A stretch of DNA of 64,000 nt from Phyllosticta citribraziliensis (GCF_038025025.1 NW_027117351.1:248001-312000), one strand, 5' to 3'; numbered from the stretch's first letter, positions 1,432 through 43,102 are shown. A program made the numbers and translations. The notes: generated by a model not told the origin, from the sequence alone.

Positions 1432-1584
1432 GGGTCCTATGGTCTAGTGGTGGCCACTGGGGTGTTAGGGGCGCTTCACACAGCTCCGAATTTGAGTAAG
1501 GTTACTCTGGCCCTAAGTGAACTTAGGGATGCGGAGGAAGACAATACAGTACGCGAGTTCGAATCACGGTTCAAGTTTTTTTTC
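1432..1584 (+). ncRNA. tRNA-like Pol III cassette E1
   Basis: GGGTCCTA + A box TGGTCTAGTGG (1440-1450); B box GAGTTCGAATC (1555-1565); oligo-T from 1576; internal hairpins GAGTAA/TTACTC and CCCTAAGT/ACTTAGGG. T-stem broken, so not a canonical tRNA. Confidence 0.6.
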
Positions 1585-1937
1585 TTTTTCGTCTTTGCTC
1601 CCTAGTTGTTATTCACTTTAGTACGCGCTCTTGACCGTCGATGCCGACGCCCAGCCCACATTGTTTTGTCTTCCACAGCGCCTGCACCCGCGCCGCTGAC
1701 CTTTTCCCTCACAGTCAGACTTGACCGTGCTGTCCTAGGCCCTCGACCTTCAACGCTCAACTTTGCAAACCCTCGTCTCCGTCCGAAAGGCTTTGCGTCG
1801 TGCACCCTGCTGGGCAACAGCACTGGGCCACTTTGCCTTCGTCTCTCCTGTTGGTCACCCTTTGCACGTTTGCGCCGCATTGCGCCCAACACTTTCCCCT
1901 CCCGATCGCAGCTTTTTGATACTTGGAGTCACAGATC

Positions 1938-2865
1938 ATGGCTCCGACCAACCGTGAAAAGGCCATTACTTGGCTAAATAGCATTGGCATCCAAGAGCTC
2001 GTCGACGACTCCATCATGCCGCGCGAATCTCTTGGCCCCAACGACAACCCGATGACTGGAGCAGAGCCCGGAGCCTCGCCCTTGCTCCCGGTCGAGCGCT
2101 TCACGGACTCCCTCTTGAATACCCTCTTCGTCTTGACCCATCTCAGGAGCGACCACGCGGCAATCAAGCAAGAGCTGCTTGAGGCGGTCCACTTCAGGCG
2201 CAATACCAAGGGCCAACCCAACAGGAGAGAGAATTGTCTCATCAACCTCGACGTCAATCGCCTTGTCAATCACGCGAATAACGAACGTAATCAGAAGCGC
2301 TTGCGCGGCGAGCTGCCTCCGCGTGTCAAGAAGAACCCGGGGAAAATGGAGCGTGCTTTGGCAAAGATGAGCCTGGACATGGGCGGCGATGGGCAAGGAG
2401 AAGATGTGTCGATGACGGAGCAGAAGGCTGTCATCGGCCAGCACAACGGTACTATCGGCGAGAAGCGCAAGCGCAGCGGCAGCGACAGCAACAGCAAGAG
2501 CGACTCTTCACCCGCGCGGCCCAGCAAGCTCATGCATATGGAGTGTTCCGATGAGCGTATGGACCTCGCTCTCTCCGGTGCTGAAGACAGGGACCAGCTT
2601 TGAGGGTGGATGCGTGCCTTTGAGATGCAGCGATGGCGAGAGCAACAGGTGGTTCGTTGTGATGAAGGAGCACAACAGTTCGGGGAATGTATGGGGCCGC
2701 TGCGTCTGGTCACGGAGGTGCGCAAGTCCTGGTCAGTGCCTACCTGCCCTCCACCCAGCCTACATTTCATATTGCTCTCGAATACGCGACAAGTGCTGAC
2801 AGAGTGCTCATAGTGAAGTCCTCCACGAGACGTCGTATGTCATTGTTCACCAAATACTTCCCTGA
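1938..2865 (+). pseudogene. Family member P1 (most divergent): ORF 1938-2603, in-frame TGA 2601-2603, frame continues to intron 2732-2813, last exon to ~2865
   Basis: N-domain IGIQELVDDSIMPR...EP..LLPVERF...IKQELLEAVHFRR...LDV. After the TGA the same frame reads GWMRAF...VRKS-TG|GTCAGT...GCTGAC...TAG|, the same phase-2 intron as in other members. Exon 2 reads CEVLHETSYVIVHQILP. Confidence 0.65.
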
Positions 2866-3234
2866 ACCCGACGTTGCAGTCGCCGTCCCTGCGGGCAATG
2901 CCTCTGCTGATTGAGCCTTCCATCGGTCACATCTTCCATAACCATTCGGGGATGTTCTGTCACACTTGGACCGCGGAATTGCAAGTTTCGGATCATTTCG
3001 ACCGCGCAAAACTCGCAAAGTTGCCTGAAGACATGGCTTCAAGACGATGATTGCCCACCAAACCCACCACTGTAAAGCAAACTGCACAATACTAGCGCAG
3101 GAGCCGCACACATGCGGGCGGTATTGAGACTCGGAAGGAATGATGGACACACGAGGGTAGTGGCAAGAAAGGGAAGGACACTCGCTGGACAGTACAGCAC
3201 ATGGAGAAATTTGACAGCAACAAAGGCTGCCCTT

Positions 3235-3455
3235 TACGTCTGTCTTTGTTTACCTGCTCCGTTGGCCAGCCTATTTTTCAGTTGATTGCTGCCGTCTAGC
3301 CGTTTGCTTTGTTTCCATGTCCAATACCTAAGTACCTGTATTTCCGCCTGGTACTGACCTTTCGTCTTCTCAAACCTTCGATCTTTCTCTTACGTTCTTC
3401 CACCGCATTGCAGTGTTCCAATGGGGACGTCACTGACGACGCAGATTCGGAGTTC
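3235..3455 (+). repeat. Degenerate direct repeat, copy B (partner at ~975-1205)
   Basis: Same collinear words as copy A. Confidence 0.8.
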
Positions 3456-3675
3456 ACTTGGGTACTGTGTGACTACACGGATTTGCTGCCTGTAGCTCCA
3501 TAGCTAAGCCATGCACTGAAGGCCTTTGGCCCTTGGACTGGGTCGCGTCCTTCGTAGCGAAGGGAACTGTCCACTCAACTTGCAAAAAGAGAAAGACAAT
3601 GACGACGGAGCGCCGTTAGAAAAACATTCAAGGAGTGGCCAGAGTATGGAGAGAGACAGAACGGAGGAGGACTGG

Positions 3676-3830
3676 AAAAAAAGTGAGCCAATTGTGAGAT
3701 TCGAACTCGTGTTGCTTTTCTTCCGGACCCAAGATCAGCCATCAGTCCCGGCAGCGCCAACTCCAAGCCGAAGCTTACAGGTTATCCCCGCCAGATGAGC
3801 CAGCCGTTCAACCACTAGACCAGATGACCC
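3676..3830 (-). ncRNA. tRNA-like Pol III cassette E2
   Basis: Minus strand: GGGTCATC + A box TGGTCTAGTGG (3822-3812); B box GAGTTCGAATC (3708-3698); 3' TGGCTC pairs with 5' GGGTCA; T7 terminator (3682-3676); internal AAGC-TTCG-GCTT tetraloop hairpin. Confidence 0.65.
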
Positions 3831-5825
3831 AATAAGCTATTGGTTCTTGGGATAGTGGCTAAGTTTGCAGAATATATGCACGTTTTTCACGCACTGGCAG
3901 GATCACACAGTTTTCGACCTTTGACGAGTCCAAACCATGACTGCGAGCACCTCGACGAGATCATCCGCACTTCTTCATCCCGATGAGCCACGTTGCACTC
4001 ACAATCTACTATTCCTGACTCTTATTTATCGGCAGCTATATCAAGATGGATGAATCTTTTGCATTACATGAATCACCGAGAGGCCTGAGTTGAGCCGGTT
4101 GCTGGCACTCATTTTGTTATCATTATTGACACGAGCCCATGAAAGGGTCTAGTCCAACATCTTCATGAATTTTGCCGGGCGGTAGGTGCTTCCAGTAGGT
4201 GCTGGCCCTACAACGCCAACAAGCACTCAGAGCGAAGTGCCGCCTTGGACGATTCGACACAATTTATGCTGACGTTGCTTCGCTTTGGGGCGCCTTGCTT
4301 GCAACTTAGATCCATCCGTCGGCGACCACCTGCTGAAGACATGTCCAGGCAAGCCCACGCGTCGAGGTCACGCCCCCGTCGTGTTTTTTGTTTTGGTTGG
4401 TCGCATGCACGCTCATCCATCCACGACACCTGCGCTGCTGGCCATTTTCCCTTCAGTCACCTGGACCGCTGCACACCATCCGACCCGCTACTTCTTCCAT
4501 TCTCTACTCCCGTCGCCCTGCTTTCTCTCCGAAGATCCTCGACCACGCCATCCCAAGCCTTCAAGCATTAGCGCTCAACTGTCCGCTCGCCGACTTTTGC
4601 CCTCTCAGCCAGACTCGACTGCGCCGCCAGAGCATCATCCTCCTCTCCTACTTCGCCGACCGCTTTCTCGCCGTCTTGCCAGCAAAGTATTGCAGGCTAC
4701 GAGCCAGCATTCCCGCTTATCCCTCACCATTGCCATCTTCTCGCTATCCGATGTCGCCACGGGTACAGAACCTCGCCAGGAAACGACAAAATACAATTCT
4801 GTCCGCCGCACGAACCGATTGCCATCGCTTGAGCCTGACGTCCCGTCCAACCAGCCCACAACAACGGAAACATCGAGTTTGAGGTGCGCCGCCAAAATTC
4901 TGCCCTGAAACCCGTTCGGCCAATGCAACAGGCTCGATGCTCCCAGAAAGAAGAGCGAGCAGGCGGATGCCAGCCCCGCCGTCCTGCCGTGAAGCCCCTG
5001 TGTTTCTTCCAATAGCTGCCATGCCACTGACGCTTTTCCGAGCGAGCCGCAACAGCGAGGCAGTGGCTTGGTGCTTGCGCAAGCTTCATGGCTTGTTTTC
5101 GATCGGTGATGCCTCGGGGAGGTTGCTTGACGGCGCGATTGTGTGTCGATGATATAATTTCTCTCCCCGCCCTCTTCCAGTCATCGCTGTTCAACCCAGA
5201 GCCCATTGACTTCAGTTTCGACCTCGCGACGGAGGCAAATGTTGGATGTTGGAAAAGCTCGAGGTGCTTGTAACGAGCAATTCCCAACAGCTTTACAGAG
5301 CAGCGCCTGGCACGCTGTTTTCACTGAAGTCCTTGGCCTCCTCAAGCCGCAATGCACTGGCCCAAAAGACAAGGACAAGTAGGGAAGAAGCAAAATGGCA
5401 GGGAAAGCAAAGGAACAATTACGTCAATCGAATCTGCATCATGACACTGGCAAAGAAGGGTTTCCCCCGAGCAACTTTTGATTCATGTTTCCAGCATCGG
5501 CTGGGAAACGAAACTGCCCAAGTGTTTGGAGATTTAAGACCTTTCTCGCTTCTCTTCAAACTTCGTGACTACTTAAAGCTCTTCGCCCATCTGCATCGTT
5601 TCTGTGTAAATGGGACGTCTTACGGTAATCCGGCTTCTTTTGGGTAGAGACGTCGATATTTAGACAGTAACCATCATGAACGCCGTACACACTATACCTT
5701 GCCTTTAAAACTATCACTGAGGAAAAGCACCGCCCCATGTAGCCTCTAGAGGGTACCAGTGAGGTAGAAGTGCTCAAGCCAGACTCCTCCAAGTCAAGCA
5801 TCACGGCAGTGTTATTTTCAAGCCA

Positions 5826-5935
5826 GTTGACGGGCGCTCTGCAAGAATCGAACTTGCGCCTGCGCGCCAAGTGTTAATTTTCTCGCACCGCAAATGCTCC
5901 GCAGGCGCAAACTGAGCCGAAATTCTGTGTCGGCG
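5826..5935 (-). ncRNA. tRNA-like element E3 (degenerate tRNA or relic)
   Basis: Minus strand: D-stem-like GCTC...GAGC with A-box-like CGGCTCAGTTTG; perfect T-arm GCAAG-TTCGATT-CTTGC (5857-5841). No good acceptor stem or oligo-T. Confidence 0.5.
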
Positions 5936-6179
5936 CCTGAGGCTTGCGGGCGGTACTTTGGAGTAAATAAAAGCGGACGCGCTGCTTCTGCCCACAACAT
6001 CACCACCCATCGTCCTAAACACACCCGACGCCTCTACTTTCAGATCACCCTCTGCCTTTCTCTCTTCGTTCAAACTAACGACGAAAATAAAGCAGTGAGT
6101 CACTCTGCCCTTCAATGATTTGATCCCTCTGACTTTGAGTCGCAGAACCAAATCCTCCAACCCTTTCCTACAACTCAAA

Positions 6180-7070
6180 ATGTCTTCCAACATGAACGCA
6201 TCTTCCAGCGTCAACGCGGCCTCCGACCTCACCATGGCGGGCTCCACCTCTTCGGCCCCAGCCATCCAGCCCACTCAAAGCGCCCTCGTCTCGTTCATGA
6301 AGCACGGCCCCCAGAGCCTCATGGACGACGAGATCAAGCCTCGAGAAGTCCCCGGCCGCCAGAGCACCAGCAGCCGCGCCGCCAAAGCTCGCATCGACGA
6401 GCCCGACACACGAATCCTCTCGCCAGCTCTGTACCCTCAAGAGTACACCACCAAGCTCAAGCAGCTGGCTACTCTTTGCGTCGAGCTCGACCAGGTTAAG
6501 CAGCTGCTGCGCGACCAAGTCAGGCGTCGCCAGACCGGAGGACGCTACAAGCCTCGGGTCAGGTTCGCGAGAGAGGTGCTGCCCATCGACCTCAATACGG
6601 TCGTGAGGGAGCTTAAGGAGGAGAGGAAGCTCGCTGCCGCTGTCGATGCTGCGGTCGACCAGGCCAACGGCGGCGCGGACTCCGCGATGGACGTCGACAC
6701 GCAGACTCCCAAGGAGGACGCTGTCGGCAAGGGCAAGAAGCGCGCTGCCTCGCCAATGGACTCCGCCATGGAAGTCGACACGCAGGCGCTTTCAAAGAAG
6801 GCCAGGAACCGCCGGAACCGCAAGGCTAAAAAGCTTGCCGCCCTCTCCACGGACACGGAGATGAAGGACGTCGTCGGGAAGCGAAAGCGGAGCGCCGACG
6901 CGGAGATGGAGGACCGCGACGACACCCAGGCGTCCAAAAAGCCAAAGGACGCCCTCGACCTGTCCGATCTCGTCCGCGACCTTCCTTCATTCTCTCCTGC
7001 AGCCCGACTTGTCCCGGAGATCACGGACAAGCCGCTGCTCGATTGGTACCGCGCTTTCCCTGGTGCTTGA
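6180..7070 (+). CDS. Family member P2
   Basis: HGPQSLMDDEIKPRE...ARIDEPDTRILSP..YP...LC.ELDQVKQLLRDQVRRRQ...RFAREVLPIDL; internally repeated basic segments (GKGKKRAASP, GKRKRSADA). A GT-AG intron (7115-7172) follows the stop. Confidence 0.85.
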   Translation: MSSNMNASSSVNAASDLTMAGSTSSAPAIQPTQSALVSFMKHGPQSLMDDEIKPREVPGRQSTSSRAAKARIDEPDTRILSPALYPQEYTTKLKQLATLCVELDQVKQLLRDQVRRRQTGGRYKPRVRFAREVLPIDLNTVVRELKEERKLAAAVDAAVDQANGGADSAMDVDTQTPKEDAVGKGKKRAASPMDSAMEVDTQALSKKARNRRNRKAKKLAALSTDTEMKDVVGKRKRSADAEMEDRDDTQASKKPKDALDLSDLVRDLPSFSPAARLVPEITDKPLLDWYRAFPGA

Positions 7071-8267: not shown

Positions 8268-9362
8268 TTACCCCAACTGGTCTGAATGGGGTTGTAGCCT
8301 GAGCAGCTGAGGCTGGGAAGCCCCCCAGTGAGGTGTGCGTAGCTTCGGCCGATAGACTCTTGCGACAACCCACAGGTATGCCTCCGCTAGGTCATGCGGC
8401 AGGCCTACGACCGTTTCATTTCCAAGCGTTCGACTGCAGGGGTATCTGTTGTCAGCCATGCTCGGTAGCAAATAGTGGAGGGGGGGGATGACGCACTACA
8501 ACCGCGCAACTCTATTTGCCATCACCACGTACTCAGATGCGAGGCGAGTTTGCCAGTACTCCTCTCTCAACTTGTTGAACTCGCTCTCGGCAAGTTCTTC
8601 CTCCTCGAAAGTCTTGTCAACAGCTGGAATATCGCTTGTGGCGTGGTATAGCGTCCTTATGGTGTCGTAAGTTGCGAAGATCTCCTCGTCGCTCTTCTTG
8701 AGAATACTCTTGTCGAGTATACTGCTCCTGATATTCTTGAATTCTCCAAGATAAGCGAAGAGTTGCGTTTTGAGGCTTGCCACAGCTCGACCTTCGCGCG
8801 GGCTGTGATCACCAGACAGAGGAGTCAAGTTGGACACTGCGGCGATGCACTGCGTAGCAAACTCGACGCGGGCTCTGAACGCAGCATCCACCGGCGTGGC
8901 GAATCGAATCTCCTCGCAAGGCGGCTCGTCCCCATCTCCCTTGCAAACCAACGACGACGCGCTGCAAGACACAATCGCATTTTTTCCCTCGTTGTCCATC
9001 TGCAGTTGTTGAAGAACTTCAGTGACATCCACGTTTTGCACGCCGGCTAGGAACCTGATCCGCGGCTTCATGCTGTGGTGCGTTTGGCGGAAGCGCATTT
9101 GCCCGCGCAGCAGAGACTTGACTTGGCGCGCATCCTCGCAGATGGAAAGCACTCGCGCAACGTCCAGGATGAAGTTCGAGTTCCACTCGTGGACCTCCAA
9201 GAGCCGGGTTTCGGGGTCGTTGAGCCAGGGTCTCTTGTGTTCGGCGTATGCGTGGGTTTCGTGCGGGCGCATGTCGTTGTCCATGATGTTTTGGATGCCG
9301 ACATCGAGGATTTTGCCCAGTGCGCGGGCCTCTTTGTCGCGCTTTGGGCCGGGAGCGTTCAC
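8268..9362 (-). CDS. Family member P3 (start uncertain: GTG at 9362, nearest in-frame ATG is far upstream); intron 8434-8496
   Basis: VGIQNIMDNDMRP...LNDPETRLLEVHEW...ICEDARQVKSLLRGQMRFRQ...RIRFLAGVQNVDV. Phase-2 intron after ARL: TA|GTGCGT...GCTGAC...CTGCAG|. Exon 2 YRTLGNETVVGLPHDLAEAYLWVV matches the paralogs' hydrophobic pattern. Confidence 0.75.
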
Positions 9363-10255
9363 GGATCTTGCGTTTGTTGAGGGGCGTGGAGCTGTGATGT
9401 TGTATTTGCAAAGGCGCCCAAGAATCCCACTGTTTTGATTTATTGATTCTGCTACGCAGGCTACGTTGAAGCAGGTGGACAGCTTGACCAGCGAGCCGGC
9501 GGCGACTTCCAAATGCAAGAAATTGGAAATGCCAAGAGAAAGGAGCAGGAGGGCAGACTTGGACCTCTGATTAAATGCTCCCATGGTGAACACCACACCA
9601 ATAAACATCTCTTGTAGATACTTTCGGGGAAGGACACTCAATCCCACCAAAATCCCACATGCCCAGTCACAAGAAACCCAAGACTTAAAATTCCTACATT
9701 GCTGACAGCCACCTGCACAAATCAGCAAGCGGTCAACGTCAAAGCAGCACGCCATTGTCTCCCTCTGCCTGATTCAAGCACAAAGCAACCCCATGCTCGC
9801 AGATGAAAATGCGAGCAAACCTTGGATCAATCCACGGACGAAGTGAGTGCCCATCTCCTCACCGCATCTTGAACTGACTTTGTCCTTCCAGAAGCACCTC
9901 CTCCCCAATCCCCTGTTCTTCCTGTCGAAGCACCTGGAGCTTCATCATGCGCTATCCAGAGTGAGCACGATCGCTGTTTGTCAAGCCGCATGCAACGAGT
10001 CCAACAAGTCGAGTTCTCAAACGTGGTGTTCTCTCCCAAAACCCGATTATCCAAACCCACACCAAGTATGCTCATGAGCCGGCGGAATAAAAGCCTTTCG
10101 TGTCATTTGATCGCGAATTCGGAGTCTTTGCAGCCTGCGAAAATACAAGATGTTAGATCATTTTACCACGTGCAAGATTAGAAGGAGAACTTACTACAGG
10201 TGCAATACTACAGGCGGGGACACGTCAGCCAACTGTGAGGCGGCTCTGGGAATAT

Positions 10256-11436
10256 TCATGCGTCCTGGCTGTGTGCTGTGTTTTCGATGACGCTTAAAGG
10301 TAGCACTGATGTGAAGCGATGCTTTAGATGCTCCTCAAGGACTAAGCCAGCATACTCCTCAAGGTGTGCACTGTCGGAAAATCAGCAATGTCTCAAAGCC
10401 TTTCCGCCGCGGAGAACGTTGCGCACCTGATGGCGGCGCACCACATGGCAGCTTCGACCTGCTCATTCGCCAGCTGAGTCTTTCGAATCTGATTATCCAA
10501 GGTGCGAATCTCCAGGCATGCTTGTTCGAAGTCTTCCTTGCCCTTCGTGTGTAGCTTGCGCGTTGCCTGCCTCAGCTTTGTCGACGCGATCAAGTGGGCA
10601 GAGAATGTGGCTTCCTCGCTCTTCCCTCCCTCTTTGTCGTCACCCAAGACTTCATTGATTTTCCGGAGCCGCTCCAGGCACTGGGACAGCATGTCTATCA
10701 AGAATTGGCCGCCGCCATCCGGGCTATCTGCAGCCCGAGCCAGGGTGGTGCCCCCTCCAGGAGCGTTGCTACCAAGATCTGGAAATGCGAGCATCGCTTT
10801 GCCCTTGAAGGTAGGCTGTTGTGTGCTCTCCGGCAAAGTTGGCTTCTCCTCGTCCGGCATAGGCGCGTCAAGGCGAGGCTTCTTCTTGCAGGGCCCTTCC
10901 TCGTCATCTTCCTCTTGTTTAATGTAGACCTCCGGTGAAGCTCTCCCCTCCTCTACCTTGACAGTTACCCGCGGTGACGTTGCTTCTGCCTCCTCCTCTT
11001 TTTTGTTCTTGTCCTCCACTGGCGTCGATGCGCCATGAGATGAAGCCTTGCCCAAGATTCCGACCTCAGTACTGGTTCTCAGACTTTCCAGAGCCCTAGT
11101 GGTGTCGCTGGTCTGAACACCTCTAGCAAGCCTGTAGCGCTTGCGGTAGCTGGGGTGTGTCTGTCTCCAGACCATTTGTTCGCGCAACAAATACTTGACG
11201 CGTGTGGCATCGTTGTCGCAAAGGTGTGCAAGCTTCTCCACATTGATTTGTAACTGGAAGGTCCACTCGTCCACCTCCAGTATGCGAGTTTCCGGCTTGT
11301 CGATACGAGCAGGTCCGGAACCCGGCCGCCTTGCGCGCGGGCGCATGTCTTCATCCATCAGGTTGACGACACCGATTTCCTTGATCCTCGCCAATGCAAA
11401 AGCAATTTTTCTGGGCTTGTTCTCGTTTTCGCTCAT
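10256..11436 (-). CDS. Family member P4, apparently intact; intron 10371-10426
   Basis: MSENENKPRK...IGVVNLMDEDMRPR...ARIDKPETRILEVDEW...VKYLLREQMVWRQ...RYRLARGVQTSD; KKKPR NLS-like; ATFSAHLIASTKLRQATR; exon 2 SAHLEEYAGLVLEEHLKHRFTSVLP. Confidence 0.85.
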
Positions 11437-11978
11437 GTCTGCTGGGTGGAGAGAACAAAAAGAAATCGTTGACGTGGTTGAGAGGATGCGAAAGACCGGC
11501 GGCGGTTGTGACAAGACTACTGCAAGAGGCAAGCGAGGAAACTCGCTGACATTTGCCAATGTCGAAGAATCAGGCGAGCTCAATGGCGATCGATCATTCG
11601 AAATGATAAGCCGGGGCTGTGTTGGCGACAAGAGTGGTTGCAGAGTGTTGGCGGCGAGGCAGCGCGCGAGGAGTGTTCAGCAGTGTGGCAGATCAAGGGT
11701 TGAAACACCTCCAGAAAATTACCGCCTTCAAAGCGGCTGTTAGCGAGGGCGGATAAACCTGGAGTAAGGCCGGCGTATCGAGTATCGCCGCCTCTGATGC
11801 ACCAGTCTCACGAGAAGCTAGGACGGGGAGGGTAGATTCAGTGAAGTGGAGGATGGGACGACGGAGTCAACAAAACAATGTGCATGTAGGGAGACATCAT
11901 TCCAAAAGTCATCGAGCCGACAGAAAATAGAAACGAGCGAGCCCAAGACTTGATTCGAATCGGCAAAAGAAAAACCGC

Positions 11979-12117
11979 AAAAAGAATAGGAGGCGGTAGT
12001 CTGACTCGAACCTCGGACTGGTTTCTGCCCACATAGTAACCTAGTTACCATACGTTGATCCCCTTATTACTTTGGGGAATGGGAATGAAGGCGATTCCAA
12101 TCCGGCCAAGGGACCCC
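11979..12117 (-). ncRNA. tRNA-like Pol III cassette E4
   Basis: Minus strand: GGGGTCCCT + A-box-like TGGCCGGATTGG (12108-12097); B box AGGTTCGAGTC (12013-12003); TTTTT (11983-11979); internal hairpins CCCC/GGGG and GGTAAC-TAG-GTTACT. Confidence 0.55.
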
Positions 12118-13030
12118 GGATCTCCATGATTGACATTCTGGACTTTTGAAACATATAGCAATCGATTCAAGCCGAAGTATTTTCTCGTCACCTCTACTTC
12201 GCATCACTAAGCTTTAGAAGCAAACAAAGAAGCTGCAAACACTGTTCTCATTTCTGTTCTAGAAGGATACTGAAAGTCCAAGGCCATTCTATTCCTAGAA
12301 AATTCCATCCTCGTTCGTGCTGTATTGCCGGCCGTTGATTTTCTGGCTCCCCATTTTGAATTACTAACTTTCCCTACCTAAATAGGCGTAGTCGCGCTCC
12401 ATGACGCCGCCTTGTGGTGTTTGGAGTTGCAGTCCGCGCACCTGATTGGCTCAACCCTTAATTTTTGAAGCTGCCAGAACTACTGAATTGGGTAGCATGC
12501 AAGGAATCCACGGTGTTTTATCCACTCCTACTTGTTTGCCCTGCCTTTGCCTTTTGCCTTGCGGTTTCCCTTATTCTTGCCTGTTATTATATCCTCCTCT
12601 CCCTCCTCGTCAATATCCACGCCAACAAATTCGCCTGCGCGAACAGCTGGGCGCTGGGCGGGGGCGGCGGGGGCGGCGGCGCGCGGAGCGTCTTCAGTCT
12701 CTTTGTCGCTTAAGGATCTGCCAGAGGAGCTATTACTTGCCATGATTACTGAGCACAACGGCGCGATGGCATGACAGTGGCGAGGTGTAAGGTGTAAGGT
12801 GTAAGGCGTGGCGGCGCAAGATGGCGGCGAGACTTGGTGCTGGAGGTGAAAGCAAGCAAACTACTACTCGTGGTGGTGACTATCACAGTTGGCCAATCAG
12901 ATGCGTTCAACTACAACTTCAAACGTCGTAAGGCGGTACCGCGGAGCGCGACTACGCCTATCCAGGTAGGGAGAGTCAGTAATTCAAAATGGGGAGTCAG
13001 AAATCCAGCGGCCGTATTGCTGATGACACG

Positions 13031-13991
13031 TCAAGGGAGCACCGAGGTGAAGCGCTTCTTGAGGTGCTCCTCAAGGACCAAGCCAGCGTGCTCCTCCAAG
13101 TACGCGCTGTGTCCAAAGTCAGCCATAGAGCCATCCACCATTGATGGAAATCACTAACCATATCTTTGCGGCCTTGGTCGCCAGCACCGCACGCTTATGG
13201 GCAAGGGCGGTCTTGTCAATCTGCATCTCCTAGACGCTGACTTCGAGACACGCGCAGCCAAAGTCGTCCGGGCGGTTGGAGTCCATGTCGTCCAATGTCT
13301 CTCCCAACCTCTTTATGGCAAACGTGGCGCCGAAACGCTTGGTCGGCTCGTTCTCGATTCGCTCCTCCACGTGCTCCATGGCAAGCTCGATCTCTCGAAG
13401 GCGGTCCAGATCTTGGAACAGCATGTCCCACACCCACGGCTCACGCTTGTCCTTGTGCTGTGAAACGGTCGCGTTCTGGCGGCCAAGCACGTCGCTGCTC
13501 TCCTCGGACGCTGCAGCCCTGGCTTTCTTGGTGGGCGGCTGCTGGGTGGCGCCGTTCTCGTCCTCGGCGGGGGTGTCGCCTCTGGTCTTTCGCTTGTCGC
13601 CTGCCTGAGCCGTGGGAGCGCCGCCGTCTTTGGAGACCACTTCCATGTGCACTAGGCGGACGTCACTGAGGAGAAGGCCGCGAGCAAGCTGGGTGGTGAC
13701 TCTCAGTGTGGTGTCGTTTTGTCGACGATGCACCTGGCGGCGCAACAATGACTTGACTTTCTCTGCGGGCCCGCATTCGCGGAGGAGCATCTGGAGAGCG
13801 AAAAGGAATTCGGGAGTCCACTCGTCGATTCTCTGGGGGCGAGTGTCAGGCTCGTTGATGAGAGGCCTTTTCCGCTGTCTCCATCCCGTGGCGGCAGCAC
13901 GAGGCATCAGGTCTTCATCCATGATGTTGTGCACACCGATATCCTGGATTTCGCCCTTGGCGAGGGTGACCTTCTTGTTGTGATTGGGCAT
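13031..13991 (-). pseudogene. Family member P5 with in-frame TAG at 13232-13230; intron 13107-13158
   Basis: IGVHNIMDEDLMPR...LINEPDTR..IDEW...VKSLLRRQVHRRQ...LARGL..SDV. Past the TAG the frame continues EMQIDKTALAHKRAVLATKAAKI-TG|GTTAGT..GCTGAC..CAG|, then exon 2 CAYLEEHAGLVLEEHLKKRFTSVLP*. Confidence 0.85.
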
Positions 13992-14413
13992 GATGAAGGC
14001 TTAGCGGAGCTGAAGAGTCAGGTTGTGCGATGTTGGTGTTGGGAAAGACGAGCGGTGGGATGGTTGAAGATGGATGTAGGACAAGAAGAAGATGGATGTA
14101 AACAATGGCAGCTTTGGATAGGGAGGCTTGTGCGCCGACTCGCTTCCGGTGCGGGTGACGTCAGTGGTGATTGGCACGGCAGGGTCGGGTAGTAACTTCG
14201 GTTGCCCGGGTTGATTTGACGCGTCTTTGCGCGCGTCGTGTCCTTACGGACGTCTCGGACGGGCGCTTGAGCAGCGAGGACAAAGACAGCGAGAATGCTG
14301 GATCTGGTGGATGGCCAAAAGCAAAAAGTCAGCTCGATATCGATCATTGTGACAAAGACAGGCCAGTACGCGGGCAACTTCATGCATTTGGCGAGCAGCG
14401 CAGCAAAAACAGC

Positions 14414-14576
14414 AAAAAGATCAGCCAGGCCCGGAGTCGAACTCAGGCCCGGAGGAAAAAAGTTGAGCCAGCGACGGTCACTCAGCCGATCGGAAGACTT
14501 ATTGCGGATTTTAGAGTGGTGGTATTTTTGCGGTAAAGTAGAAATTGGGCGTCAATCCAACTCGGCCGAGGCGCCG
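14414..14576 (-). ncRNA. tRNA-like Pol III cassette E5
   Basis: Minus strand: A-box-like TCGGCCGAGTTGG (14569-14557); B box GAGTTCGACTC (14444-14434) in a GC-rich hairpin; TTTTT (14418-14414). An extra T6 run precedes the B box. Confidence 0.5.
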
Positions 14577-14812
14577 GGGCTCGTGAAAGATTGGACAATT
14601 TGACCGGATTATATAGATCACTTTTGGCAATGGGTCGTCGAGCGCCCGTTTGCCTCAATCTTGCTGTTTGACGACAAGGCAGCCGGCTCTCGCCGTCGAT
14701 GGACCTCATCGCCTCTTATATCGTCCTCGTCAACGTGTTTTCAACTTCACCAAAGCTTGTCGCCCACACCACAAACATCCTTCTCCTTACAGTCGTAGGT
14801 AAACGAGCAGTA

Positions 14813-14965
14813 GGGGGCGTTCATTCCCTGCTCCAGCTGCACTCAAGGAGTATCCATTTACTGCTCAGCTACACTTAAGAAGCATTCATTCACTGCTCAG
14901 CCATACTCAAGAAGCATTCATTCACTACTACAGCTGTATTCAAGGAGCGTTCATCTACTGCAGCC
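14813..14965 (+). repeat. Minisatellite, ~32-bp unit x ~4.7
   Basis: Units resembling AGAAGCATTCATTCACTGCTCAGCCATACTCA repeated in tandem with substitutions. Confidence 0.85.
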
Positions 14966-15305
14966 ATTTCTTCCGACACGCGCTATGACTTCGAGAGAGC
15001 GCACAACACTTGACGCTTCCAACAACACTCAAGGCCAGAAACAAGCACTCTCACACTCACGCAAAAGAAGATCAAAGCAACTTTTAGATACCCCCACCTA
15101 CGCACTGACTACCCTTCCCTACCTGCCAGAATCTTCAATGACTGAACCCTTCCAGAAGCAGCCACCTCCACCCGCACTCCATACTCTACATTTTGCCCCA
15201 CGCCATTCCTCGCTTTTGTTCGGGCGATCCATGAAGCCCCCTTCGTCAACGTGTCCAACCATGAATCCTCCCACCCGCTCAACCACTCTCGCGCTCCAAG
15301 AACCC

Positions 15306-33058: not shown

Positions 33059-33112
33059 GGCCACCGTCTGCTCTGCTGAAGACACGACTCCCGCTTCGAC
33101 TCCCTTGTCGTC

Positions 33113-38710: not shown

Positions 38711-38979
38711 CCTGTCTTGGTGAAGTTGGCGGCGCGGTGGAGTAGCAAGACAACCAACACTACCAGCCACGACACTTACGCAGCTAACCAACGCCAGGCT
38801 CCGAAGAGTATGCTTTATATTTTCAAAAGTTTGATTCCTTCTCAAGGATTGTGTAGGATGCCAGTTGTGGACGTTTGGCGCCGTGGTACGATGGCATCTT
38901 TCAGGTGCTGCCAACCACAGAGGCGGATTCCGCGTTCGATACCCTGCCCTTCCGATTTTCTTTTGCCCTTTTTTTTTTG
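38711..38979 (+). other. Possible further tRNA-like Pol III relic (E8)
   Basis: A-box-like TGGTGAAGTTGG (38718-38729); B-box-like GCGTTCGATAC (38932-38942) followed by T-runs; spacing longer than in the other elements. Confidence 0.3.
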
Positions 38980-39844
38980 TTCCGTCACTGCTCTAGCCGA
39001 AGGAAAGAGTACATATCAGACGAGGCAACGAAATCGGCGCCTACGCTTCCGCCCTCCGCTTCCGCCTTCCGGTTCTGCCCTCCGCGCTCCGCGCTCCGCC
39101 CTCCACCACAGCTCTGCGCCTCTCCATTGCTGTCAATTCTTTTTGCCCTCCTGTCGGTGCCCAAGCAGCGACTGCATGAGCTCTGTCGCCGTGCGCAGAC
39201 AAGTCTGGATATCTCGCACTTCGACTCTCTCCCCTCTCCAAAAAGTGCGCTCTCGCCCCGAAACTTTTCCCAAAGCCTCACCACACTTGGACAGCATCCG
39301 CCGCACACCGCTTTCCGACAATTCGCAGATCGCAGGTCGCAGGTCAACATGGGGATCTCAACTCTTTCCAACCTTTCTTCGTGCCTCTTGTCTCTGATCC
39401 TGTAGACATGATCTTTTTCTTCATCTTTTCCTGTTTCGGCGTTGACACCAATCACGAGAATGACGCCGCTTTATCCTTGAGCTTCCGCAAGGTGTGCAAC
39501 AAAGAAGGTAGGCGTTTGCGAGGAAGAATGGCACTACTTCAACAGGGCCGGCTTTGTGCTCTTCTACAGCACGCCCTGGTTTCAGCCACGCACTCAGGCG
39601 CGCTCCTTGGTCGCCACCTTCATGGGCCGTAGAAGCGCTCGGTCGTGCACGAAGTGCGGTAGGTCAATGTTCGGACATCCCTCCTTTGGATTTTTGGGCC
39701 GACCCAGGTGAGAGCGTACGTAGGTAGGTGCGGAGGCAAAAGGAAGAGAGTGAGTGGAGCGGCAAAAGAATTAACACCACTCAGTCAACCTGCGCGACAT
39801 TTGGGCCGACATCTGGTTGCCGGCAGGCGCAAAACGAAACGAGC

Positions 39845-39963
39845 AAAAAGGAATTAGGACCAAGGTGGAATCGAACTTAGGAGCGACTGTGTTGGTTCAT
39901 CTTGCACAGAGGCCAAGTAATCAAACCCGGTTTGTAGACGTAACCAATTGCGCTATCCGACCC
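39845..39963 (-). ncRNA. tRNA-like Pol III cassette E6
   Basis: Minus strand: GGGTCGGA + A box TAGCGCAATTGG (39955-39944); B box AAGTTCGATTC (39878-39868); 3' TTGGTCC pairs (WC or wobble) with 5' GGGTCGG; TTTTT (39849-39845); internal CAAAC/GTTTG hairpin. Confidence 0.6.
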
Positions 39964-40465
39964 ATTTCTTGATCCATGACTGAAGGTCAAAGTTTTCAAA
40001 TTATATCCTAAAAAAAAGTTCTTAGGTTGCCTGTGCTATTTTCAGCCGGAAAGGGACGAATACTTTGCCAATTAATCGACAAGAACCAGCACCACACGTG
40101 CAGCTGCACAGTTATTTCCCGAGCTGCAAGCTTTGGCGCTACGATCAAGACCCGCTCACCATGAGCGTGGTGTCGCATCGGCGTAGGCGACGCGACGCAC
40201 ACCGCCTGGCAGAACTCCTCCATGTTTTATGGCACCAAGGTAGGTAACGTTCGCGAGCTTTACCTCTCTCTTCCTCTTTCCTTTTCCTTCCAAACTTGAA
40301 GGAATGTCTTGTCGTCCTGCGGTCTGGTCGCAACACCGTCTACCAGTTTCTCTTCAAACTTTTGACGCCATCTCGCTGTCGCCACTTCTGCCACCGCCAC
40401 CACCACCACCACCCACCATCACCCACCCAGCGAAAGGGTTTCAGAACACTCGGTCGCACTTCATC

Positions 40466-41810
40466 ATGAGTGCCTCCGCGTCAGCCCTTGGGGCGGAAAT
40501 CCCCAGCTTTTCTGAGGCTGATGAGTCGCAAAGGCCACTTCTGACAATCCAGCACGTGGGCATCAACAACATCCTCGACAAAGATGTGCAGCCACGCGAA
40601 CGCTCCCGTGACAATTCAAGAGCGCGCATCGACGAGCCAGACGTGCGCATCTTGAGCCCTGAGGAGTATCCGTACCATTTTCTTCGCGCACTCGAGCGGC
40701 TTGTGCGCCTATGCGACGACCTGGCCCAGCTCAAGCTGCTGATACGCCGCCGCGTCGATTGCAGGAAGAGTGACGCAAGGTATCGCACACGATGTCGGCT
40801 TGCGCGAGAGGTCCTCACCCTCGACCTTCATGCTGTCCACAATGATCTCTGCGACGAACGCGAAGAAGACGTGTCCGCCACCGATAGGGCAGCCTAGGGC
40901 ACATCGCAGCGTAAGCGCCCCGCCGACTCGCCCATAAGGACCGTCGAGCAGCAAGCAAATGCCAAGAAGCCGCGAATGAACTTTCCGGAACAAGACGACG
41001 AGCTCAATGATGATGTGCATATCAAGCAGGAAGAGGAGCGGGGCGACGACCAGTACATCAAACAAGAAGAGCAGGAATGCGGACTACGATATGTGCTGGA
41101 ATACGCGCCCGGTGGTCAGGATATCGATCAGGAGGACATCAAGCAGGAGGACGTCAAGCATGAGGAAGAGCGGAGTGATGACCAAAATGACGACGACCCG
41201 CAGGATGGTGAGCCCAGTGCCCAGGCATCGAAGAAGAGTCGGAGGGGCACAGCCCACAGAGCTGGCAAGGCACGCAAGGAGCAGCAAGAGAGAAGGGAAC
41301 GGAAGGTAGAGTACGCCAGGCGGACAGCCGACATCTTGAGCGCCCACCCTCGCCACGACGACGCTCTCACCAAGGACTTCAACTCGACTGCAGAGTCCAG
41401 CTGGATCCTGCGGCTGCTCCAATCCCAAGTCAACCGTCTCGGAGAGATCAGGCGCCGCCTGGACTTCAGCGAGCAGGACGCAGAGCCGCAGGCTGCCAAG
41501 CTCGCCGCGCACCTGGCTGCCTCGTCGGCGCTCAGTGAGGCCACGCGCACGCTGGATGGAAAGGACAAGTGGAAGTTACTGCAGCACCACGTGTTGGACA
41601 TGGAAGACGACCGCACGCACCTGGAGCACAAGGCCGTTGTTCTCAAGACGAGCATCCGCAAGCTCTAGTACGTCCGACCCTCCTTTCCCATCATGCGCGG
41701 CTGTAGAGTAGCCTGAGTTGACTGACTTCCGACACAGCGAATTCACCAAGGAGAAGAATTATCGTCTTCGGAGAGATATGGAGGCAAGCGTTCTCGAGGC
41801 ACTCACTTGA
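40466..41810 (+). pseudogene. Family member P6 with in-frame TAG at 40895-40897; intron 41668-41737
   Basis: VGINNILDKDVQPRE...ARIDEPDVRILSPEEYP...LCDDLAQLKLLIRRRV...RLAREVLTLDL. After the TAG the same frame reads GTSQRKRPADSP...IKQE repeats...AAHLAASSALSEATR...RKL-TA|GTACGT..CTGAC..CAG|, then exon 2 YEFTKEKNYRLRRDMEASVLEALT*. Confidence 0.85.
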
Positions 41811-42163
41811 AGCCATAGGCGCGTCTGCCAGTGCCATCAAGAGTTCGCAAAGACAGTCTTGTATCATGCAGCACCACGACCACCGACCAGCTGTACCGCC
41901 ATGCGTCGACGACAGAAGGCAGTGCCTCTCTACTCACATCAGCCACGCGCCAGAGCAGCCAGACGCGCTTTCTTGTAGGGATCAGCAACATTCACGCCCG
42001 ACCCCCTCACTGTCCACGGAGCAGCCATGTCTCCTCTTCTGCAAAGGTCTCGGGAGCGGAAGCCACCAACCCACACAAAGGCAAGCCCCCCAATTTCATC
42101 GCTGCCGAAACCTTCCTAACACGCTTGACAGCACCTCCAGACAACCGCCCAGTTAGTACGGCA

Positions 42164-42268
42164 GTTGGCACTCTTTGGCACTTTCAGCGCTCTATTTTGG
42201 ACAAGAAGGTGTTGGGAAAGGAGGGGAAGGCTTGGATTGCTTGGTATTCGAGGGGCTAGAGGATCGCT
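42164..42268 (+). repeat. Conserved non-coding block downstream of P6 (partner 45293-45397)
   Basis: TTTGGCACT..GCGCTCTATTTTGGACA.GAAGG.GT.GG.AAGG..GGGAA..CTTGGATTGCTTGGTATTCGA shared between the two copies. Confidence 0.85.
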
Positions 42269-42861
42269 GTGTCGTGCATTGCATTGAATTTACTACACAA
42301 AGCCGCCCTACAGGCAACGAAATGTGTTTCGGCGTTGCGATGGGAGCGGCAGTCGCAGGCGCCATTCATTGTGCACATAGGACAAACGCAAGTAGATGGG
42401 AGGCGTAATTTGGAGCGACAGCACCTCTTCATGTTGCCTCGAAGCGCGACCACCCACACGAGGGCCAGCAACCTCAACAGCGTTGCTCTCTGAGCGCACC
42501 TGGCTGCGTTGATCACCTACCTACGCACCTACACGGAAAGGCTCTCGACTCAGCGCCGCGGCTCCACTGCCTACCGCCCGAAAGCTTGGTCAAACCTTTG
42601 TCTAGAAACACATCTTCTGACCCCCTCGGCCGGCGCTCGATTGCTCGCTTTGTTGATTGAAGCGGGTGATGCGGTCTAATTCTTCTGTAGATTTTCTTGT
42701 GATGACTTGATTTTTGTTACTATGACGCGATGGGCGCGTTGGGCGCGTTTGGAAATGAGCGATGGTGCTAAGAAGACAGAGATTGGTTGGGAGTTTGTCG
42801 TAGAAGGCTCGCGTCAGGATTGCGCAGAGCGGTAGAGACAATCGCAGGGTCAGCCGTACCT

Positions 42862-43102
42862 AGCCCGGCGGCTTAGTTGATCATTCAAACAGAGCTAGCT
42901 GGTACCTTTGACAATGGTGGGGCATGCCTTTAACTATATAATTTTGTTCAGCAGTCATTTCTTTCAAGTAAGTCTTAGGTCCTTTGGCGACGTTGGGAGA
43001 TGCTTTGGAGTCATCCACATAATTGAAAAAGTGGCTCTGATTCGGCTGTAAAAGGCTTCTAGAGTATCAAACAGTTCGAGCCTCCTTCCGGGCTTACTTT
43101 TT
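42862..43102 (+). ncRNA. tRNA-like Pol III cassette E7 (two alternative 5' ends)
   Basis: AGCCCGG (42862-42868) pairs perfectly with CCGGGCT (43088-43094) and is followed by A-box-like CGGCTTAGTTGA. Internal family-type start GGTCCTT + TGGCGACGTTGG (42978-42996). B box CAGTTCGAGCC (43072-43082); oligo-T from 43098. Confidence 0.6.

What the first reader, a model, noticed from the sequence alone, without database searches (positions are those of the whole stretch)
1432..43102. Family of tRNA-like Pol III cassettes paired with the paralogs: candidate ncRNA or TFIIIC-site plus protein module
Seen: seven elements (E1 1432+, E2 3830-, E3 5935-, E4 12117-, E5 14576-, E6 39963-, E7 42862/42978+) have an A box or A-box-like motif, a B box (GTTCGANNC) and, except E3, an oligo-T terminator right after it. 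E1, E2, E4, E6 and E7 start GGTCNNN-T[AG]G and can form a terminal stem. The A-to-B inserts are 65-115 nt, differ in sequence and contain short hairpins. T-stems are mostly broken and no clean anticodon arm is visible. Six elements lie upstream of a family member: E1-P1 ~350 bp, E3-P2 ~250 bp (divergent), E4-P4 ~540 bp, E5-P5 ~420 bp, E6-P6 ~500 bp (divergent), E7-P7 ~890 bp. I saw none of comparable quality in the housekeeping blocks. Established: A/B boxes bind TFIIIC, drive Pol III, act as chromatin barriers and are targeted by some mobile elements. Inference: promoter boxes and terminators were kept while tRNA structure decayed, so these may be non-tRNA Pol III RNAs or TFIIIC sites co-duplicated with the gene as a two-part unit.
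Basis: partly seen in the sequence, partly recalled or inferred. Interest (0 to 1): 0.9.

Follow-up and report, generated by a model that had tools for sequence, protein, structure and literature searches.

The report
Fungal Pol III small-RNA gene family
Seven short cassettes scattered among copies of an unknown fungal-type protein family carry every signal of genes read by RNA polymerase III but are not tRNAs, so they look like a previously undescribed family of small structured RNAs that needs confirmation at the bench.

Summary
Six loci (E1, E2, E4-E7) carry a full set in fixed order and spacing: TATA box, A box 47-55 bp downstream, B box GTTCGANNC 67-114 bp after the A box, and a T5-T8 run 10-19 nt after the B box. 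None appeared in 300 simulated windows. An eighth element (E8, 38816-38978) has all signals except a canonical A box. E3 is doubtful, because it has a B box only.

None is a tRNA or any Rfam family. New here: a YCA start-site-like motif lies 21-29 nt after each TATA. The ~20 nt leader before "GGTC" is complementary to that element's own tail between B box and T-run (cognate arrangement ranks 1 of 5040 permutations; five control pairings 740-4795).

The units therefore look like genes for 114-173 nt "panhandle" RNAs, similar in layout to vault RNA, with a freely diverging core. All lie in the two clusters of an orphan protein family (8 members, one of them new). Five of the eight genes have a well-formed cassette within 900 bp upstream.

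Transcription by Pol III, conservation in relatives and function could not be tested. No genome was held, and RNA contigs cover only E1.

The parts
1385..1589 (+). E1 cassette. TATA 1385-1389; YCA motif at TATA+21; predicted RNA about 1414-1580; A box 1440-1450; B box 1557-1565; T8 1576-1583 and T5 1585-1589. Leader 1415-1420 pairs with tail 1567-1572.
   Evidence: RNA contigs of two runs end at 1568 and 1580.
3676..3876 (-). E2 cassette. TATA 3876-3872; A box 3822-3812; B box 3706-3698; T7 3682-3676; predicted RNA about 3846-3680. Two alternative closing stems: leader with tail, or acceptor-like 3832-3824 with 3691-3683.
5815..5975 (-). E3, a doubtful or decayed member. B box 5853-5845 sits in a perfect 5-bp T-stem hairpin. 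There is no TATA[TA], no A-box match and no T-run.
11965..12157 (-). E4 cassette. TATA 12157-12153; A box 12108-12097; B box 12011-12003; T5 11983-11979 with back-up T-runs to 11965; predicted RNA about 12128-11980.
14405..14615 (-). E5 cassette. TATA 14615-14611; A box 14568-14557; internal T6 14461-14456; B box 14442-14434; T5 14418-14414 and T5 14409-14405; predicted RNA about 14587-14415, or a short form ending at the internal T6.
38816..38978 (+). E8, a new element. TATA 38816-38820; no canonical A box; B box 38934-38942; T4 38956-38959, T4 38961-38964 and T10 38969-38978; predicted RNA about 38845-38958.
39845..40005 (-). E6 cassette. TATA 40005-40001; A box 39955-39944; B box 39876-39868; T5 39849-39845; predicted RNA about 39976-39848. 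An 8-bp leader-tail helix lies within 39976-39960 and 39869-39856.
42935..43114 (+). E7 cassette. TATA 42935-42939; A box 42985-42996; B box 43074-43082; T5 43098-43102 plus T4 and T6 to 43114; predicted RNA about 42965-43101.
1938..2603 (+). P1, orphan family member. An RNA contig spans 1720-3542 with introns 1850-1934 and 2731-2812.
6180..7070 (+). P2, orphan family member.
8496..9755 (-). P3, orphan family member. No cassette upstream.
10393..11436 (-). P4, orphan family member.
13230..13991 (-). P5, orphan family member.
40304..41668 (+). P6, orphan family member, seen as two ORFs (40304-40897 and 40976-41668) that both match relatives.
43993..44883 (+). P7, orphan family member.
45976..47028 (+). 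P8, a new eighth family member. No cassette upstream.

Best explanation

**Inferred mechanism.**
1. TFIIIC binds the B box and the A box.
2. TFIIIC places TFIIIB on the TATA box about 50 bp upstream of the A box.
3. Pol III starts at a YCA motif about 26-30 nt after the TATA box.
4. Pol III stops at the T-run 10-19 nt after the B box. Most units have back-up T-runs.

**Inferred product.** Each RNA is 114-173 nt long and is closed by a helix between its first and its last ~6-11 nucleotides. The A-box and B-box segments sit just inside that helix, and a 65-115 nt core differs in every copy. This is the panhandle layout of vault RNA.

**Shown by sequence analysis.**
- The motif set and its spacing.
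- The absence of tRNA structure.
- Leader-tail complementarity specific to each copy.
- Restriction of the units to the clusters of the orphan protein family.

**Inferred only.**
- Actual Pol III transcription.
- The RNA ends.
- That the RNA itself, rather than only factor binding, is under selection.

**Function, a weaker step (about 0.3).** The RNAs act together with, or on, the adjacent orphan nuclear-looking proteins. They could be RNP partners or local regulators.
For: **1. Composite signal.** TATA, A box, B box and T-run occur together at 6 loci, against 0 in 300 simulations. B box plus T5 occurs 7 times against a mean of 0.20. The relaxed scan adds nothing comparable elsewhere.

**2. 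Geometry.**
- The TATA box lies 47-55 bp before the A box in 6 of 6 units (coordinates). As I recall it, this is the TFIIIC-directed TFIIIB placement known from yeast.
- A YCA[ACT][AG] motif lies at TATA+21 to +29 in 7 of 7 units (found post hoc).

**3. Terminal helix.**
- RNAduplex energy of the leader (20 nt before GG) with the tail (after the B box to the T-run) is -8.4 for cognate pairs and -5.3 for non-cognate pairs.
- The true pairing ranks 1 of 5040 permutations.
- Five control segment pairs rank 740, 844, 1020, 2581 and 4795.
- In all 20 window definitions that include at least 10 nt of leader, the rank is 1-100 of 5040.
- The 5' strand of the helix starts 28-30 nt after the TATA box in 5 of 7 units.
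- The minimum-energy fold of the predicted RNA has a closing 5'/3' stem in 6 of 7 units, and z is -2.8, -3.0 and -3.3 for E1, E6 and E5.

**4. Selection on signals.** Between E1 and E2 the boxes match 22 of 22 and the rest 72 of 137. The linked proteins are only 18-42% identical in their conserved domain, so neutral DNA of that age should be scrambled.

**5. Not a known RNA family.** ARAGORN finds 0 genes, including with introns of 0-200 nt. Rfam gives no relevant match.

**6. RNA contigs, a weak hint.**
- Spliced contigs from two runs cover E1 and stop at 1568 (followed by adaptor sequence) and at 1580. The T-run is at 1576-1583.
- Neither contig end carries a poly(A) tail.
- The P1 mRNA contig begins at 1720.

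**7. Precedents.**
- Pol III-made non-tRNA small RNAs with TATA-like elements, putative A and B boxes and poly-T in Neurospora (PMC3547838, passages read).
- Rodent 4.5SH and 4.5SI genes with A and B boxes plus a TATA-like box at -31/-24 (PMC10137851, abstract in the listing).
Against: - There is no direct evidence that Pol III transcribes any unit.
- The only RNA cover, on E1, is continuous with the upstream mRNA contig. It could be a long Pol II 3' UTR.
- The leader-tail complementarity is almost all Watson-Crick: 5 G-U among 51 pairs.
- That complementarity is about as strong on the opposite strand (total -57.6 against -58.9; antisense rank 42 of 5040). On its own it does not prove an RNA-level rather than a DNA-level inverted repeat.
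- Fold stability is unremarkable for 4 of 7 units (z -0.25 to -1.5). For the bodies without the leader, z is -1.6 to +0.5.
- Beyond the B box and T-run, no k-mer is shared more often than in shuffles.
- E5 carries a T6 before its B box, and E8 lacks a canonical A box.
- The patterns, segment windows and YCA motif were defined after inspection.
- No orthologues were available, so there is no cross-species covariation or conservation test.
Confidence: 0.6

Rival explanations
1. The units work as DNA elements. They would be tDNA-like TFIIIC/TFIIIB/Pol III platforms that act as insulators, nucleosome-free regions or roadblocks between tightly packed paralogs and in front of their Pol II promoters. 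The RNA would be a by-product.
For: - Only promoter and terminator signals are shared, and the RNA core is free to vary.
- The units sit 130-900 bp upstream of family genes in either orientation.
- E1 and E2 bracket P1 in inverted orientation.
- Multiple back-up T-runs suggest that stopping Pol III before the neighbouring promoter matters.
- The leader-tail complementarity shows no strand asymmetry.
- Barrier and regulatory roles of tDNAs and extra-TFIIIC sites in yeasts are established knowledge.
Against: - A bare factor platform does not need a copy-specific complementarity that begins at the predicted start site and ends at the terminator.
- As I recall, extra-TFIIIC sites are B boxes without a TATA box, an A box at tRNA spacing or terminators. 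Here all of these are kept.
Confidence: 0.2
2. The units are Pol III-transcribed precursors of Dicer-type small RNAs, like the milRNAs of Neurospora. The short hairpins in the cores would be the product.
For: - Neurospora milR genes are Pol III-dependent and have TATA-like elements, putative A and B boxes and poly-T (PMC3547838, passages read).
- The cores contain hairpins, for example an 11-bp stem in E4 and a 7-bp stem in E1.
Against: - The hairpins are short (7-11 bp) and are not conserved between copies.
- No complementarity of 13 nt or more to neighbouring genes was found at E<=5.
- No small-RNA data were available.
Confidence: 0.08
3. The units are decaying relics of tRNA genes or tRNA-derived SINEs that were carried along when the protein genes duplicated. 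They would have no present function.
For: - The geometry at both ends is like a tRNA gene: the A box lies 8-9 nt after GG, and the T-run starts 19-28 nt after the start of the B box.
- T-stems are broken.
- E3 looks like a further decayed copy.
- E5 has an internal T6 and E8 lacks an A box.
- At a lowered ARAGORN threshold, E2 gives a weak pseudo-tRNA call (3685-3828).
Against: - Neutral decay would erase the TATA box, A box, B box and T-run as fast as the body. Instead 6 loci keep all four at fixed spacing, and E1 and E2 keep 22 of 22 box positions against 72 of 137 elsewhere.
- There are no target-site duplications beyond chance. For 7 of 7 elements, at least 22 of 200 shuffles reach the observed repeat length.
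- The copies are not similar enough to be a repeat family.
Confidence: 0.08
4. The motifs are a chance co-occurrence, or features of Pol II untranslated regions, over-read by eye.
For: - The B box alone is at chance frequency.
- E1 lies inside an RNA contig that is continuous with the upstream mRNA.
Against: - The composite pattern was seen 0 times in 300 simulations against 6 loci observed.
- The signals keep a consistent order, spacing and strand.
- The leader-tail signal ranks 1 of 5040.
Confidence: 0.03

Closest known systems
Vault RNA genes (animals and other eukaryotes)
   Same: - Pol III type 2 genes with an internal A box and B box.
- An RNA of about 90-140 nt whose 5' and 3' ends pair into a 'panhandle'.
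- A central domain highly variable in sequence and size.
- Paralogs clustered at one locus.

Source: PMC9179338, passages read.
   Different: - No match to the Rfam vault model, even at lax thresholds.
- The handle is not conserved in sequence between copies here.
- Whether this organism has a major vault protein could not be checked, because no genome was held. As I recall, vaults are generally reported absent from fungi.
Rodent 4.5SI and 4.5SH small RNA genes
   Same: These are lineage-restricted multi-copy Pol III genes, derived from tRNA and from 7SL RNA respectively. They have A and B boxes plus a TATA-like box at about -31/-24 that is needed for efficient transcription (PMC10137851, abstract only, listing).
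   Different: As I recall, those genes are near-identical repeats with normal A-B spacing. Here the copies share only the signals, and the A-B distance is 67-114 nt.
Neurospora Pol III-dependent milRNA genes
   Same: A filamentous fungus with non-tRNA Pol III products that have TATA-like elements, putative A and B boxes and a T-cluster terminator (PMC3547838, passages read).
   Different: - Those are single loci giving about 19-25 nt RNAs.
- milR-1 has no A or B box.
- No paralog family or link to a protein family is described in the passages I read.
5S rDNA genes flanking wtf driver genes in fission yeasts
   Same: Dispersed Pol III genes are tightly associated with members of a fast-evolving gene family: 72 of 83 wtf genes in S. 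octosporus. They lie upstream, downstream or on both sides, in either orientation (PMC9562144, passages read).
   Different: - There the Pol III genes are ordinary, highly similar 5S genes that are thought to serve as recombination landing pads.
- Here the Pol III units are not a known RNA and share too little sequence to drive recombination (at most 12-nt identities).
Extra-TFIIIC (ETC) and chromosome-organising clamp sites of yeasts
   Same: B-box-containing sites near Pol II genes that are not tRNA genes (recalled).
   Different: Those sites lack the TATA box, an A box at tRNA spacing and terminators, and they are not transcribed (recalled). The cassettes here have all of these signals.

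Membership tests
tRNA genes (including intron-containing) | A cloverleaf that tRNA finders can score (acceptor, D, anticodon and T arms) | tested here: not met
   ARAGORN finds 0 genes at default settings, with and without introns of 0-200 nt. Only at -ps90 does E2 appear, among 6 low-grade calls. The Rfam tRNA models give no match at E<=10 on E1-E5, on E6-E8, or on E1 and E2 searched alone.
Pol III type 2 transcription unit (with upstream TATA) | A box and B box in order on one strand, followed by an oligo-T terminator | tested here: met
   Met at 6 loci with both boxes and T5-T8. E8 has a B box and T-runs only.
Pol III type 2 transcription unit (with upstream TATA) | TATA box about 30 bp upstream of the start, that is about 50 bp before the A box | tested here: met
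   TATA[TA] lies 47-55 bp before the A box in 6 of 6 units, and a YCA motif lies 21-29 nt after the TATA box in 7 of 7. The expected spacing is recalled, not taken from a call.
Pol III type 2 transcription unit (with upstream TATA) | Occupancy by TFIIIC, TFIIIB and Pol III, and a Pol III-dependent transcript | not testable with these tools
   This needs ChIP, inhibitor treatment or mutant analysis. The RNA contigs over E1 cannot identify the polymerase.
Vault RNA | Sequence and structure match to the family model | tested here: not met
   No Rfam hit at the gathering threshold or at E<=10.
Vault RNA | Panhandle: a 5'/3' terminal helix with a variable central domain | tested here: met
   The cognate leader-tail pairing ranks 1 of 5040. 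A closing stem appears in 6 of 7 minimum-energy folds. This is a prediction only.
Vault RNA | Association with the major vault protein particle | not testable with these tools
   No genome is held for the window.
Y RNA | Match to the family model with its Ro-binding helix | tested here: not met
   No Rfam hit.
tRNA-derived SINE | Many similar copies flanked by target-site duplications | tested here: not met
   The copies share only identities of 12 nt or less at the boxes. Flanking direct repeats are no longer than in shuffles for 7 of 7 elements.
Extra-TFIIIC site | An isolated B box without the other gene signals, not transcribed | tested here: not met
   A TATA box, A box and terminators are present. 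E3 alone would fit this description.

The most novel reading that the evidence does not exclude
Each orphan protein would work as an RNP with a Pol III panhandle RNA encoded next to it. The conserved ends would serve as promoter, stability element and protein handle. The free-evolving 65-115 nt core would give each pair its own specificity. Protein gene and RNA gene would then duplicate and diverge as a two-gene module. That would be a eukaryotic family of paired protein and cognate small-RNA genes with no described counterpart.
Probability: 0.12. Interest if true: 0.9.

Novelty: new variant of a known kind. Interest (0 to 1): 0.62.

Why it matters
Outside tRNA, 5S, U6, 7SL and RNase P/MRP RNAs, very few Pol III products are known in fungi. 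A multi-copy, lineage-restricted family of structured Pol III RNAs would add a new class.

This family keeps only its transcription signals and a copy-specific terminal helix, and it is interleaved with an orphan protein family. That gives a clean system for two questions:
- Does selection act on the RNA or on Pol III factor binding?
- Why do a protein family and a Pol III gene family travel together?

The predictions are concrete: RNA sizes, RNA ends, and which point mutations should abolish expression. They are cheap to test.

Tried and rejected
**Searches that were unavailable or came back empty**
- No whole genome is held for the window. A genome-wide scan, a comparison with real tRNA-gene promoters and orthologous loci were therefore impossible.
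- The look-up of sequencing runs listed no holder on record as RNA.
- The two runs that were laid gave no contig cover over E2, E3, E4 or E5.
- The earlier-findings index returned nothing by place, sequence or words.

**Search for related elements in metagenomes**
- I scanned for E1/E2-type units with A box, N88-118, B box, N8-30 and T5. This gave 50 loci.
- ARAGORN calls two adjacent tRNA genes in 44 of the 50.
- The other 6 have no ARAGORN call and were not followed up.
- No relative of the cassettes was recognised.
- The search for related loci with the domain alignment could not run, because the alignment has no conserved stretch.

**Identity of the protein family**
- Pfam gave nothing significant (at E<=1).
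- The PDB sequence profile gave only GCN4 coiled-coil noise at E>=0.15.
- Foldseek against the PDB had a best E of 4.4.
- VIA-align had a best Z of 4.4, to generic helical lid domains.
- The ESM Atlas gave no usable hit.
- The word-based protein search returned only the window's own protein.

**Tests on the elements that gave no signal**
- Complementarity of the elements to neighbouring genes or to each other: only box-sized matches of 11-16 nt at E 0.03-2.4.
- Shared k-mers beyond the B box and T-run: none above shuffles.
- Co-duplication by Mantel test: rank 231 of 720, and the element alignments were unstable.
- Strand asymmetry of the helix through G-U pairs: none.
- The MAFFT alignment of all 8 elements misaligned the A boxes and was not used for structure counts.
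- The two-sequence RNAalifold run on E1 and E2 gave 2 compensatory pairs among 30, which is too few to weigh.
- C/D-box and H/ACA motifs were looked for by eye only, and none was seen.

**Technical**

Full report
**What the window is**

The window looks like a filamentous-fungus-type eukaryote.
- GC content is 53-62%.
- RNA contigs show GT..AG introns of 63-85 nt.
- Ordinary eukaryotic genes are present, including WD40 and F-box proteins, a UCH protease and an NS-type endonuclease.
- No whole genome is held for it, so everything below rests on the 64 kb window and on public protein and read collections.

**Checking the observation**

The B box alone means nothing. There are 14 GTTCGANNC matches against 12.2 expected, and 37 of 100 shuffles gave at least 14. 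The context of those 14 is what matters:
- Six are followed by a T5-T8 run starting 10-19 nt later. These are E1, E2, E4, E5, E6 and E7.
I call it E8. It has T4 at +13 and T10 at +26.
- The remaining seven, E3 among them, have no T-run.

I compared the composites with 300 first-order Markov simulations of the window:
- B box plus T5: 7 observed against a mean of 0.20 (maximum 2).
- A box, B box and T4: 7 against 0.06.
- TATA, A box, B box and T-run: 8 matches at 6 loci, against 0 in all 300 simulations.

These patterns were written after I had seen the elements, so the figures overstate the significance somewhat. The gap is still very large. Allowing one mismatch in the B box adds only two sites (54635+ and 24261-), and both lack a TATA and an A box. 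No comparable unit therefore lies in the housekeeping parts of the window.

**Anatomy of the cassettes**

E3 is the exception.
- The TATA box lies 47-55 bp upstream of the A box in all six elements that have an A-box match.
- A-to-B gaps are 67-114 nt.
- The T-run begins 19-28 nt after the start of the B box. In E1, E4, E5, E7 and E8 it is followed by further T-runs.
- A YCA[ACT][AG] motif lies 21-29 nt after the first T of the TATA box in 7 of 7 elements. I found this post hoc.
- E5 has a T6 (14461-14456) before its B box.
- E8 has no canonical A box.
- E3 has only a B box inside a perfect 5-bp hairpin. I treat it as doubtful or decayed.

**Not tRNAs, and not any known RNA family**

- ARAGORN finds nothing at default settings, with or without introns of 0-200 nt.
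- With the threshold lowered to 90% it makes 6 calls. One is E2 (3685-3828) and five fall in unrelated sequence. At 80% it makes 189 calls, which is noise.
- Rfam gives no hit at gathering thresholds over the whole window.
- At E<=10 it gives only chance matches: over 1-15000 (1 hit), 38800-43120 (4 hits), E1 alone (2 hits) and E2 alone (3 hits). None is to a tRNA, vault, Y RNA or other Pol III family.

**A terminal helix made by the leader**

I noticed instead that in E1, E4 and E6 the bases upstream of GGTC pair with the tail.

To test this, I computed RNAduplex energies for every leader against every tail. I then asked how the true assignment ranks among all permutations.
- With the leader taken as the 20 nt before GG and the tail as the bases between B box and T-run, cognate pairs average -8.4 kcal/mol against -5.3 for non-cognate pairs.
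- The true assignment ranks 1 of 5040 (seven elements, E3 left out).
- Five control pairings rank 1020, 740, 2581, 844 and 4795 of 5040. In that order they are:
  - leader against sequence after the terminator;
  - leader against sequence before the B box;
  - sequence upstream of the TATA box against the tail;
  - TATA+5..25 against the tail;
  - sequence after the A box against the tail.
- Across 28 window definitions, the 20 that include at least 10 nt of leader rank 1-100. The 8 that use only GG onward rank 482-4407.
- With all eight elements and a different window, a permutation test gave p about 1e-4.
- The 5' strand of the best duplex starts 28-30 nt after the TATA box in E1, E5, E6, E7 and E8. 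Its 3' strand ends within 6 nt of the T-run.

I then folded the RNAs predicted from these ends (114-173 nt).
- A closing 5'/3' stem appears in 6 of 7.
- z-scores against 100 dinucleotide shuffles are -2.76, -0.25, -1.48, -3.32, -2.98, -1.19 and -0.75 for E1, E2, E4, E5, E6, E7 and E8.

One caveat applies. The helices are almost purely Watson-Crick (5 G-U in 51 pairs) and are about as stable on the other strand. The complementarity by itself therefore does not say RNA rather than DNA. What points to an RNA is that the helix starts at the predicted start site and ends at the terminator.

**What is and is not shared between copies**

- Apart from the B box and the T-run, no 6-8-mer is shared more often than in shuffled elements.
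- BLAST between the elements finds only the 12-nt A and B boxes of E1 and E2.
- E1 and E2 are the closest pair. They have 94 of 159 aligned columns identical: 22 of 22 in the two boxes and 72 of 137 elsewhere.
- No flanking target-site duplications exceed chance.
- No complementarity to neighbouring genes was seen.
- The linked proteins are only 18-42% identical in their best-conserved domain. The duplications therefore look old, and keeping four signals at fixed spacing in six or seven copies argues for selection on those signals. This step is inference.

**RNA evidence**

Two public runs, coded X1 and X2 and from two studies, hold spliced contigs of this region.
- One contig in each run covers the upstream gene and runs on through E1.
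- The X1 contig ends at 1568 with adaptor sequence directly behind it. The X2 contig ends at 1580. The T-run is at 1576-1583.
- No poly(A) tail is seen at either end. A poly(A) tail is seen elsewhere in the same data, at 14947.
- The P1 mRNA contig starts at 1720.

This fits a transcript ending at the E1 terminator. The contig is continuous with the upstream mRNA, and contigs show neither strand nor polymerase. I count it as a weak hint only.

**The protein family**

- A profile of the 116-residue N-terminal domain finds eight members in the window. tblastn with all relatives finds no more.
- In 1.84 billion representative proteins only 50 match at E<=1e-3, and 30 at E<=1e-10.
- No Pfam family matches.
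- The domain is predicted with high confidence as a small helical fold (pLDDT 93.6).
- It has no convincing match in the PDB: Foldseek best E 4.4 and VIA-align best Z 4.4.
- The domain is basic (pI about 10) in 5 of 8 copies.
- In a tree of 35 domains, P3, P4 and P5 form a supported clade (96/90). P2 and P6 group weakly (88/56). P1 sits in a separate deep clade.

**How the elements and the family genes are arranged**

- Upstream in tandem: E1 before P1 (about 350 bp to the ATG, about 135 bp to the start of the mRNA contig), E4 before P4 (about 540 bp), E5 before P5 (about 420 bp) and E7 before P7 (about 890 bp).
- Divergent: E6 and P6 (about 300 bp), and the doubtful E3 and P2.
- E2 lies tail-to-tail with P1.
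- E8 lies 860 bp from E6 and is convergent with it.
- P3 and P8 have nothing upstream.

Five of the eight genes thus have a well-formed cassette within 900 bp upstream. Six of the seven well-formed cassettes lie within the family clusters extended by 1 kb, which make up about 36% of the window. By my own arithmetic the binomial probability is about 0.01. A Mantel test of element similarity against protein similarity is not significant (231 of 720). The P2/P6 pair shares the divergent layout. Co-duplication as a unit is therefore plausible but not shown.

**Interpretation**

The best reading is a family of Pol III-transcribed small RNA genes with a type 2 promoter plus a TATA box. Each would give a panhandle RNA with a variable core.

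The closest known layout is vault RNA: a type 2 promoter, a 5'/3' handle, a highly variable central domain and clustered paralogs (PMC9179338, passages read). Membership fails on the family model, and the vault proteins could not be checked.

Other relevant precedents:
- Rodent 4.5SH and 4.5SI genes with A and B boxes plus a TATA-like box (PMC10137851, abstract only).
- Pol III-dependent milRNA genes of Neurospora (PMC3547838, passages read).
- For a Pol III gene family interleaved with a fast-evolving protein family, the 5S rDNA-wtf association in fission yeasts (PMC9562144, passages read). There the Pol III genes are ordinary and similar to each other.

The main rival is a DNA-level role as tDNA-like platforms, in which the RNA is incidental.

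Five literature searches found no description of such a fungal family. The searches were keyword-based and cannot find a sequence family, so 'not in print' is not established.

**Verdict**

The reading of the units as non-tRNA Pol III RNAs is supported in silico and sharpened by the TATA box, the start motif and the leader-tail helix. The two-part module idea remains open. Transcription, conservation and function all need experiments or genome access.

Noticed in passing
It lies directly downstream of P7 and has no Pol III-like cassette upstream.
   Followed up: yes
43993-44346 (+) and the seven paralogous domains: The conserved 116-residue N-terminal domain of the family is predicted with pLDDT 93.6 as a small helical fold. 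It has no Pfam, PDB-sequence or fold match. Only 50 relatives were found among 1.84 billion representative proteins. It is basic (pI about 10) in 5 of 8 copies.
   Followed up: partly
1720-3542 (+): The RNA contig of P1 shows an intron in the 5' UTR (1850-1934), ending 3 nt before the ATG. A second intron (2731-2812) lies after the stop codon of the 1938-2603 ORF. Either the 3' UTR is spliced or the true coding frame continues differently.
   Followed up: no
14456-14587 (-): E5 has a T6 before its B box. In the minimum-energy fold of its body, the 5' end pairs with the stretch just before that T6. A short RNA whose B box lies downstream of the terminator, as I recall for yeast U6, is therefore possible.
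   Followed up: partly
1385-3876: E1 and E2 are the most similar pair, with identical A and B boxes and A-B spacings of 106 and 105 nt. They flank P1 in inverted orientation, like brackets around the gene.
   Followed up: partly
38985-39846: E8 and E6 are convergent and 860 bp apart. No family member or recognisable gene lies between them.
   Followed up: no
668-1334: Summed contig depth in this bin is far above that of the single long contig laid there. Many contigs fit at only 90-95% identity or in two places. This is probably caused by the CTGC- and TACC-type simple repeats in the stretch downstream of the first ORF.
   Followed up: no
L007, L012, L036, L038, L040, L043 (metagenome loci): Six metagenome loci match the pattern of A box, about 100 nt, B box and T5 without an ARAGORN tRNA call, and five share a similar 5' end. 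My guess is archaeal tRNA genes with long introns. I did not examine them.
   Followed up: no
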